A stretch of 64,000 bases of DNA from the human T2T-CHM13v2.0 reference genome, Homo sapiens. A program made the translations under genes and the position numbers. Shown here one piece after another: positions 9,201 to 12,200 of the stretch; position 1 is the first letter of the stretch; every line of letters starts with the position of its first letter. The stretch lies in the NCBI RefSeq assembly GCF_009914755.1, contig NC_060934.1. One strand, 5' to 3'. The notes under the pieces are model-generated. The model saw only the letters and a program-made list of their open reading frames with translations, had not been told where the DNA came from and did not search any database.

Positions 9201-12200
9201 CTACCTATGGAGATGACCCTTAGCTGTGTGATGCATGCACCTGACCTTCTCCTCTCCCCTGTCATCCATCCCCATTCCTGCCCTGTTCCCTGTTGGTATG
9301 TGTCTGAGTTTATTTCACTGTTAAATCGTGCGTTTGCCTGTCTTTCGCAGATATCTCCATGTCTCCTCAACAAACTGGAGCTAAGTAGTGGGGAGCAGAC
9401 CAAAGCCCTGAACCAGTTAGAGAGGGTACTACTCTTTAAGAACCTCAAGGTCTCTCTCCCTCTCTTTCCCTTCCCCTTTTTATTTCTTTCAATGTTTATT
9501 TTTTATATATAACACCTGGGTCCCATTTCCATTGTGTAGAGCACAACTTACCCCTCCCTAGTAACACAGCACGGCTTTGGAAGAGTTGCACGTGATTGTA
9601 GCTTTGCAGTGTTGGGAATTCTCCTGGGGCATCTGGTTGCCTGGATACAGGAGAAGGAAGACTTGAACATCACATAGTTAGCCTAGAAAGCCTGGGGTCT
9701 GCTGTTACCTTGTGGGGAGGCTTAAGATCTACCATTTCTAGGGAAACCGTGAGGGACCTTCAAGCAAGACCCTTCCCCCTTCTACCTTATCCTTGTCTCA
9801 GAGCTGGCATAGAGAGCTTAAGCACAGTCCTCAGCTCTATCTGGATTACCTGGACTGGGTTTGGAGGGAAAGGGTAGTCCATCTAGTTGGGATCTTTTTT
9901 TTTTTTTTTTTCTTGGTTACCATTAAAGAGGTCATTCCAAGGATTAGAACTCTAGATTGATGGAAAGAAGCCAGGTGCCAGGATAGCCCAGGACACTGGG
10001 AATACTTTGGGATCTGTGAAGATGCCCTCTGTCCTCTAAAAGTCAAGGTATAGGGGAGCTTAGGGGAGGGATCCAAGCTAAAGATTACCCTAATCTGCAT
10101 ATACCTGCCTTAGGAAGAAAGGGGAGAGAAGGAGGTGTGGGCTGTCTGGGCTGTCCATCACAAGAGTGTGCATGCTGAAGGTGTGGTTGTGGACATACAG
10201 GTCACTGAAAGTAAAAAACTCTGTGTATGTACACCTAGCTAGATAGTCCATTGGCCCGTGTTCTCTTTGAATGCATTGTGTCATTTCATTTGTGTGCTTG
10301 CACAGTCTCAAGCTGCAGCTCTCATTAGTGGCTATCCAGCATGTTGCCATGATTATTAACCTGGGACCTGCTCCTTTTTTGTAAAGCTTACACTGTCCTT
10401 TGGAGTACAGAGTCATACAGATAAGGTGGCGTAGAATTCCATGAATACCTACTGCCCACCCCACACCTTCAGACCTTAGGAGAGGGAGAATAGCTATACC
10501 TTTTAAGGGCTGAGGCATTCGTGAGAACTGGCAGCCTCTTGGCCCCTACTCCAGCCAGCAGGCTGAGAACACTAATTGAAATGATCAGGTTGGAGCAAGC
10601 TTTGCAGAAGATAGAGATGGAAACGTGAAAAACTGATCCTCGTATGGGAAGGAATCTCAATGACTGACTGGCTTCTCAGTGGAAGTAGGACTGCCTGGAG
10701 TCCCTGAAATGGGGGAGCCTCCTGGAGAGAAAGGCTACCTCATAAAAGTAGATCCAGTTCTTAGTACTTTTGGGAGCTCAATGATAACTGCCAGTAGAGC
10801 CAGGAGGTCTCTCATTGATCTCTTGGCCTCTTGCCCTTTTGCATGTTTGGCGGACTCTTCTCCCATAACATTTTTTACTATGAACTTGATCCAGTTGAGC
10901 TCCAGTGGTTCCTGGGGAGAGAATCCTTTTGCTTCCTCCTTAGCTATAGCGGTCAGTACGCCTGAAGCTCAGTTCTAAGCATATGACTGCAGGCATTTTG
11001 GAGATGGATCATCTAGAAGTATAAATCCAGTATGAGGCTGTTGCTATGTTACTAAGAGCTGGGGGAAGGAAGGGCTCAGCTGTTCAGCCTCATCTTTATT
11101 GGAAGGAGCTATGGGTAGGAATGGAAGAATTGTGTGGTTTCTAAGCAAGGAATCAAAGATTACCCAGGTTCTGAGAGCTTGGGGGAGCTTGAGGAAGGGA
11201 GTCAATCCCTCACTATCAAAAGGAATTGAACAGGCCATGGACAATAGGATATATTCAGCCTTTAGGAAGAGGCAGAGAGAAAAAGTGCTTCTGCTCTCTT
11301 TAGAGTCATTCTAATGGTTTCTGGAAGAGTGTTGCCATTGCCCAATCCAGGAATGGTCCAATCCAAGAATGGTCTATCAGTCTAGGAATAGTTTAGAATG
11401 ACTTTGTAGAGGGACTGAGTTCAAACCCAACTGAGAAAACATCAGGGCTTAAAAAACAAATTGGGCCGGGCACAGTGGCTCACACCTGTAATCCCAGTAC
11501 TTTGGGAGGCCAAGGCGGGCGGATCACGAGGTCAGGAGATCGAGACCATCCTGGCTAGCACGGTGAAACCCCGTCTCTACTAAAAATACAAAAAGAATTA
11601 GCCAGGCTTGGTGGCGGGCGCCTGTAGTCCCAGCTACTCAGGAGACTGAGGCAGGAGAATGGCGTGAACCCAGGAGGCGGAGCTTGCAGTGAGCCAAGAT
11701 CACGCCACTGCACTCCAGCCTGGGTGGCACAGTGAGACTCTGTCTCAAAAAAAAAAAAAAAAAAAAATGGGGCCTAAACAAAGTAACTTTGAACTTAGAA
11801 TGGAGGAAATACATAAAAACACAGATCCTAGGGAATAGTTAACAAACAGGTGATAGAGATTGTCCCTTGCCACTAAAAGTAAGCTATAGGAAGAACAGAA
11901 ATACAGCAAGAGGGGAGTGCAACAGAGCAAGGAGTCAAGGAATCAGTGGCCTTACCATCTGACAACATAAAACTGCATCTGGAAAGACCAATAGTGAGAG
12001 GGCCAGAGGGACAGGTAGTCTCATTGATATAACAAATTGGGAGCAGCAGAGAGCACAGCAGCAGCGTGACATGACCTTCTATCCTGAACTCCACAAAGAA
12101 ACTGGGAGGCCACTCCTTCCTTAACTCCAAGGAATGAGCTTTTGACCAATCTGATACAGAAATTCCAGAGAGTAAGAGATATGTTAGCTGGGTGCAGTGG

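What the first reader, a model, noticed from the sequence alone, without database searches (positions are those of the whole stretch)
9351..9449. Hidden in-frame GBF1 cassette exon with two frame-preserving donors (25 or 33 aa)
Seen: a good acceptor (cgtgcgtttgcctgtctttcgcag, with retained intronic CpGs), an open phase-0 frame [33 protein letters not shown], and two GT donors at +75 and +99 nt, both multiples of 3. The canonical GBF1 protein as I recall it joins TNMKK directly to LKMRAG, so this peptide is absent from it. Inference: a regulated exon that inserts a helical, Leu-rich segment just after the DCB domain, the region involved in dimerisation and in Rab1b and enterovirus 3A interactions.
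Basis: partly seen in the sequence, partly recalled or inferred. Interest (0 to 1): 0.7.

Follow-up and report, generated by a model that had tools for sequence, protein, structure and literature searches.

The report
GBF1 optional exon and lost microexon
This is a real, already annotated optional exon of the Golgi traffic regulator GBF1, shared with birds and bony fish and likely switched by RBFOX splicing factors, and 1 kb behind it lies the broken remnant of a tiny second exon that fish, frogs and birds keep but mammals appear to have lost.

Summary
The exon is real but not hidden: RefSeq lists both forms (9351-9425, 9351-9449). Both keep the frame. The 33-aa peptide is 91-100% identical from human to platypus, turtle and birds. 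Teleosts carry a 27-aa homologue ending at the +75 donor, so the short form is likely ancestral and the 8-aa extension later. Both donors are weak, RBFOX motifs flank the exon, and the matching mouse exon is a listed direct Rbfox target. The insert falls in the disordered DCB-HUS linker, not in the DCB fold, and splits a KK|LKMR motif kept in 31 of 56 distant GBF1 homologues. New here: sharks, bony fish, frogs and birds splice a 12-aa microexon at the same junction. No mammalian hit carries it (0 of 42, against 9 of 43 bird hits). Human keeps a decayed copy at 10386-10420 with both splice sites broken. The 8-aa extension resembles the core of that microexon. Tissue, direction of regulation and function remain untested.

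The parts
9351..9425 (+). Cassette exon, short form (75 nt, 25 aa); likely the ancestral form
   Evidence: Peromyscus P0121; birds P0383-5 use this donor; 27-aa teleost homologue ending LER/LDR; RefSeq table
9426..9449 (+). 24-nt extension to the distal donor (VLLFKNLK), seen in mammals, turtles and birds, not in the fish inserts
   Evidence: Val (GT) follows the 33-mer in 33 of 33 genomic ORFs; resembles the microexon core
9307..9350 (+). AG-free zone, polypyrimidine tract and acceptor, conserved with birds and reptile-like ORFs
   Evidence: PWM 10.1, above 30 of 56 annotated acceptors; nearest upstream AG at -44
9232..9237 (+). TGCATG, RBFOX primary motif 119 nt upstream
   Evidence: forced TGCAYG in 7 and compatible in 23 of 33 genomic ORFs, 1 not compatible, 2 too short (protein-level inference)
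9569..9592 (+). Two GCACG RBFOX motifs, +120 and +139 from the distal donor
   Evidence: both sites compatible with GCAYG in 10 of 13 genomic ORFs long enough, one site in 1, none in 2 (protein-level inference)
10386..10420 (+). Decayed remnant of a 36-nt microexon (12 aa in sharks, bony fish, frogs, birds): 35 nt, acceptor reads AA, donor reads CAG|ATAAG; not annotated
   Evidence: homologues
10169..10174 (+). TGCATG 217 nt upstream of the remnant (a further one at 10840)
   Evidence: conservation not tested
8581..8635 (+). Upstream constitutive exon, ends ...TNMKK (first half of the KK|LKMR motif)
   Evidence: RefSeq table
13020..13167 (+). Downstream constitutive exon, starts LKMRAGG and holds the S233 phosphosite
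   Evidence: PMC10442430 passages

Best explanation
It is an annotated, frame-preserving cassette exon of GBF1, shared with teleost fish, that adds 25 or 33 residues at the start of the predicted-disordered DCB-HUS linker; it is likely switched on by RBFOX proteins in a subset of cells and likely works by replacing the conserved basic KK|LKMR junction motif with a longer binding element. Shown: sequence, frame, two weak donors, RBFOX motifs, conservation, position in the model, motif splitting. Taken from a paper's table: the mouse 75-nt exon is a predicted direct Rbfox target. Inferred: activation rather than repression (two downstream GCAYG sites and weak donors, against one upstream site); neurons, heart or skeletal muscle as the tissues; a changed partner or membrane contact as the effect. 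History (inferred): the bony-vertebrate ancestor had a short exon plus a 36-nt microexon in this intron; amniotes added the 24-nt extension; mammals lost the microexon, whose remnant is at 10386-10420.
For: Frame and sites. Peptide 91-100% identical in 13 of 13 amniote representatives, while the 49 aa of the next constitutive exon fall to 61-80% in marsupial, platypus, turtle and birds. Length changes seen keep the frame: -1 codon (P0110), +2 codons in fish. Teleost homologue: 5 of 6 fish inserts scored above all 5000 shuffles; the sixth is an unrelated-looking prediction. Weak donors. Mouse Gbf1 cassette 106850-106925, upstream intron 700 nt (human 715), Rbfox = 1, Mbnl, Nova, Ptbp = 0 in Dataset S9 of PMC5989265. 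Position rule and GCACG as a primary motif: 10.1101/840272 passages. Insert inside the pLDDT<50 stretch 205-415. Motif in 31 of 56 distant homologues. The same linker holds S233 and the ARMH3 site 364-395. Remnant: best match of 63,982 positions for the first six residues (30, next 23) and its end sits on one of 6 CAG.TAAG sites of the window, 4 of which are annotated donors.
Against: No human junction reads or peptides were seen. The mouse row was matched by lengths, not by sequence; its tag [1/11] likely means one inclusion against eleven skipping mRNAs/ESTs, and it is in no cortex developmental module. No Gbf1 hit in the ASCOT supplements. The table gives no direction, and the upstream TGCATG would favour repression. 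Human downstream sites are the weaker GCACG. Upstream intron codons are almost as conserved as the exon, so part of the constraint is at RNA level. All protein hits are open in frame by construction, so they cannot show absence of stops in other species. Mus caroli has Ala at the proximal donor (GT to GC; 3 of 120 hits). The helix has low confidence and does not dock in the model. The DNA-level test of the remnant was weak (26.5, next 25.5 of 4,340 windows). Non-avian reptiles were also absent from the microexon lists, and 90% clustering can hide isoforms.
Confidence: 0.62

Rival explanations
1. The exon is real and RBFOX-bound, but RBFOX represses it through the upstream TGCATG, so it is included where RBFOX is low or by another factor.
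For: The only full TGCATG near the exon in human is upstream (-119) and conserved; upstream binding favours exclusion; the mouse table gives no direction.
Against: Two conserved downstream GCAYG sites within 200 nt, weak donors that need help, and the exon is mostly skipped in mRNA/EST collections.
Confidence: 0.17
2. The exon is spliced at low level and the peptide is a tolerated passenger in a disordered linker; the conservation mainly reflects an RNA-level regulatory element.
For: Flanking intron strongly conserved; [1/11] tag and no developmental module in mouse; pLDDT<50; Mouratou 2005 notes that all GBF1 splice changes fall in tolerant linkers.
Against: Near-invariant peptide across amniotes, frame-preserving length changes, recognisable homologue in teleosts; three in-frame modules (25, 8, 12 aa) kept at one junction.
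Confidence: 0.13
3. The insert acts as a switch on catalysis, folding back on DCB-HUS like the Sec7 D-loop to dampen Arf activation.
For: The Sec7 D-loop lies between DCB and HUS and its removal raises GEF activity about eightfold (PMC10927569 passages); the insert has an amphipathic segment (moment 0.66, no null).
Against: Gea1/2, the yeast GBF1 homologues, are not autoinhibited; no docking in the model.
Confidence: 0.08

Closest known systems
RefSeq GBF1 alternative exons 9351-9425 and 9351-9449 (hub's annotation table)
   Same: Identical coordinates, both donors.
   Different: The annotation gives no history, regulation or function, and has no row for the remnant at 10386-10420.
Mouse Gbf1 cassette CA-107338-106150-106850-106925-109546, Rbfox direct target (PMC5989265, Dataset S9; supplement rows and passages seen)
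   Same: 75 nt, similar upstream intron, same gene; agrees with the motifs found here.
   Different: Only the short form; a Bayesian-network prediction with no direction; orthology inferred from lengths.
Known GBF1 splice variants (Mouratou 2005, PMC553965, Table 2; passages seen)
   Same: In-frame changes confined to inter-domain linkers.
   Different: The five listed variants do not include this exon.
Tissue-regulated small exons of trafficking genes (Snap23, Cltc; search listings and abstracts only)
   Same: In-frame inserts in trafficking proteins, RBFOX among the regulators, species-specific gain or loss.
   Different: Those are functionally studied; here a longer exon with two donors and a lost partner microexon, untested.
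Sec7 D-loop (PMC10927569; passages seen)
   Same: Regulatory element in the DCB-HUS linker of a large Arf-GEF.
   Different: Constitutive, BIG/Sec7 branch; no homology or docking shown for this insert.

Membership tests
Conserved frame-preserving cassette exon | AG/GT sites, length multiple of 3, open frame between constitutive exons | tested here: met
Conserved frame-preserving cassette exon | Peptide kept in orthologous isoforms | tested here: met
   87 full-length amniote hits; 5 teleost inserts
Conserved frame-preserving cassette exon | Junction reads or peptides in human | not testable with these tools
   No RNA-seq or proteomics access; RefSeq lists the exon; transcript accessions and their support not seen
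Conserved frame-preserving cassette exon | Codon-level purifying selection (dN/dS, PhyloCSF) | not testable with these tools
   No vertebrate DNA available; no GBF1 hit in the searched supplements of PMC6886504, 2 files unsearched
RBFOX target exon | GCAYG motifs within about 200 nt of the exon | tested here: met
   -119, +120, +139
RBFOX target exon | Motifs conserved | tested here: inconclusive
   Compatible at protein level only; no DNA alignment
RBFOX target exon | CLIP or depletion evidence | not testable with these tools
   Mouse prediction at FDR<=0.01 integrates such data; underlying values not seen
SRRM3/4 neural microexon | Length of 27 nt or less (51 nt in the wide sense; recalled) | tested here: not met
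   75/99 nt. The lost 36-nt exon meets only the wide limit
Decayed (pseudo) exon | Homology to an exon used in relatives, same intron and order | tested here: met
Decayed (pseudo) exon | Broken splice sites or frame | tested here: met
   AA for AG, ATAAG for GTAAG, 35 nt
Decayed (pseudo) exon | Loss mapped on a DNA alignment of mammals | not testable with these tools
   Only absence among protein hits
Sec7 D-loop-type autoinhibitory element | Docks on DCB-HUS and lowers GEF activity | tested here: inconclusive
   No docking at usable confidence; activity not testable

The most novel reading that the evidence does not exclude
GBF1 has an ancient splicing switchboard at one junction (25, 8 and 12 aa modules) that rewrites a basic motif conserved across animals. 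Amniotes evolved a second donor whose 8 residues mimic the core of the old microexon; that copy let mammals lose the microexon. The long form is then the mammalian carrier of a 450-million-year-old tissue-specific binding motif (age recalled).
Probability: 0.15. Interest if true: 0.62.

Novelty: new member of a known kind. Interest (0 to 1): 0.36.

Why it matters
GBF1 is the essential cis-Golgi Arf activator, and the papers I read on its linker do not mention splicing there. A near-invariant alternative peptide in the linker that also holds S233 and the ARMH3 site gives a direct test of how neurons or muscle might tune GBF1. Variants in this exon or its RBFOX sites would read as deep intronic against the selected transcript. 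The remnant is a clean case of microexon loss, with a testable compensation by a new donor. The exon itself is already annotated, so surprise is modest.

Tried and rejected
Pfam: 0 families for 2 queries. PDB sequences: 0 matches. Rfam gathering over 8600-13100: 0. No second genomic copy. Poison exon rejected: no stop in either form. Paper searches (10); none listed a paper on this exon or the microexon; most subscription papers are not held. Supplements without a GBF1 hit: PMC5577920 (1 small file), PMC6886504 (2 files unsearched), PMC6952364 (6 files), PMC5630039 (16 of 27 files unsearched); unseen files may bear on tissue specificity. PMC12152634: the three GBF1 coordinate rows seen concern intron retention after exon 13487-13710, in a file cut when stored. 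PMC11837677 and PMC5598015: GBF1 mentions unrelated. PMC6727740 and PMC9469209: passages, domain context only. Two papers asked for by recalled id were not held. The 50% representative search showed no further homologue of the 33-aa peptide among the 150 of 231 listed. NES-like spacing and a palmitoylation-like Cys (113 of 120 hits) were noted from recalled consensus and not pursued. No complex prediction was run.

Full report
Observation. The acceptor at 9351 and the GT donors after 9425 and 9449 are as described; both forms are phase 0 and read through without stops between TNMKK and LKMRAGG. The hub's RefSeq table already lists both, so the exon is annotated, not hidden. The stretch is single copy. 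With a PWM trained on 56 annotated exons of this window (scored on its own training set, so only a guide) the acceptor is average (10.1) and both donors are weaker than all 56 (1.6 and 2.1).

Conservation in amniotes. A search with the peptide plus 8 upstream codons listed 120 of 138 hits among 150 candidates: 87 full-length GBF1 isoforms and 33 short genomic ORFs. The 87 are 42 mammalian, 2 turtle and 43 bird clusters by name. Their inserts are 33 aa in 76, 45 aa in 9, 32 aa in 1 and 25 aa in 1. In 13 representatives the exon is 91-100% identical to human, while the next 49 constitutive residues fall to 61-80% outside placentals. These hits are in frame by construction and cannot show that no species has a stop. 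The upstream intron codons are also well kept, so RNA-level constraint contributes.

Deeper history. The 9 longer bird inserts carry 12 extra residues. A representative search found a fish protein with these 12 alone, and two named searches found them in teleosts, gar, paddlefish, sturgeon, sharks, a ray, frogs and birds (120 listed of 155 and of 405). Arowana, eel, catfishes and a mormyrid also carry a 27-aa insert before them that aligns with the human 25-aa form and ends LER or LDR; 5 of 6 such inserts beat all 5000 shuffles, the sixth did not. Birds use the same 25+12 layout. So the +75 donor is likely ancestral and the extension later. No mammal appears with the 12-mer: 0 of 42 against 9 of 43 bird clusters (Fisher p 0.002, rows not independent), and none is named. 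Non-avian reptiles are missing from those lists too, and clustering can hide isoforms, so the loss is inferred.

The human remnant. The best ungapped match of the bird 12-mer in the window is at 10386 (30, next 23), 936 nt after the distal donor. It follows a 48-nt AG-free pyrimidine tract, but the acceptor reads AA; 35 nt later comes CAG|ATAAG, one of 6 CAG.TAAG sites on this strand, 4 of them annotated donors. A codon-aware DNA test alone was weak (26.5, next 25.5). Together I take it as a decayed microexon (about 85%). A shifted 39-nt AG...GT open segment (10387-10425) exists and is unannotated. The 8-aa extension VLLFKNLK resembles the microexon core: 124 and 171 of 25,942 stop-free 8-mers reach its score; this test was post hoc.

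Regulation. TGCATG lies at -119 and GCACG at +120 and +139; genomic ORFs of other amniotes are mostly compatible with all three. Four of the 9 TGCATG in the gene's 37.8 kb fall in this 4.4-kb intron (p 0.014). Dataset S9 of PMC5989265 lists a 75-nt mouse Gbf1 cassette with a 700-nt upstream intron as an Rbfox direct target (FDR<=0.01), not Mbnl, Nova or Ptbp, in no developmental module. I matched it by lengths only. Downstream sites usually activate and upstream sites repress (10.1101/840272, passages); I favour activation.

Protein. An AlphaFold2 model of residues 1-620 of a mammalian isoform with the identical insert folds DCB and HUS confidently and leaves 205-415 at pLDDT<50; the insert (214-246) has a low-confidence helix at 229-244. 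The junction splits KK|LKMR, a motif present in 31 of 56 distant homologues that passed a length filter out of 142 (25 misses, some being looser variants or genomic read-through). S233, 20 residues on, affects cytokinesis (PMC10442430, passages); ARMH3 binds 364-395 of the same linker (PMC13427656, abstract and passages). The likeliest mechanism is a tissue-restricted change of a linear binding or membrane-contact element; this step is inference.

Novelty. The exon is in RefSeq and in a mouse target table. Ten full-text searches found no paper on it or on the microexon, within a library that lacks most subscription papers and with several supplements unseen. What this work adds is the three-module history, the remnant and the split motif. 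Interest 0.36.

Noticed in passing
window 10387-10425 (+): A shifted AG...GT segment over the remnant is 39 nt, stop-free in phase 0, with donor PWM 6.0 and acceptor 4.7; a possible cryptic exon, unannotated.
   Followed up: partly
window 11464 and 12187 (+): Two Alu-like elements in the same orientation in the downstream intron (family name recalled), so no inverted pair.
   Followed up: no
window 13710-14254 (+): Tandem acceptors at 14248, 14251 and 14254; retention of this intron changes in human organ development in rMATS rows of PMC12152634.
   Followed up: no
P0068-P0070 (Mus caroli): Ala instead of Val after LER implies GT to GC at the proximal donor.
   Followed up: no
P0041-P0043, P0063, P0385: The Cys at position 4 of the insert, kept in fish and most amniotes, is Gly in a sparrow cluster and similar ORFs.
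   Followed up: no
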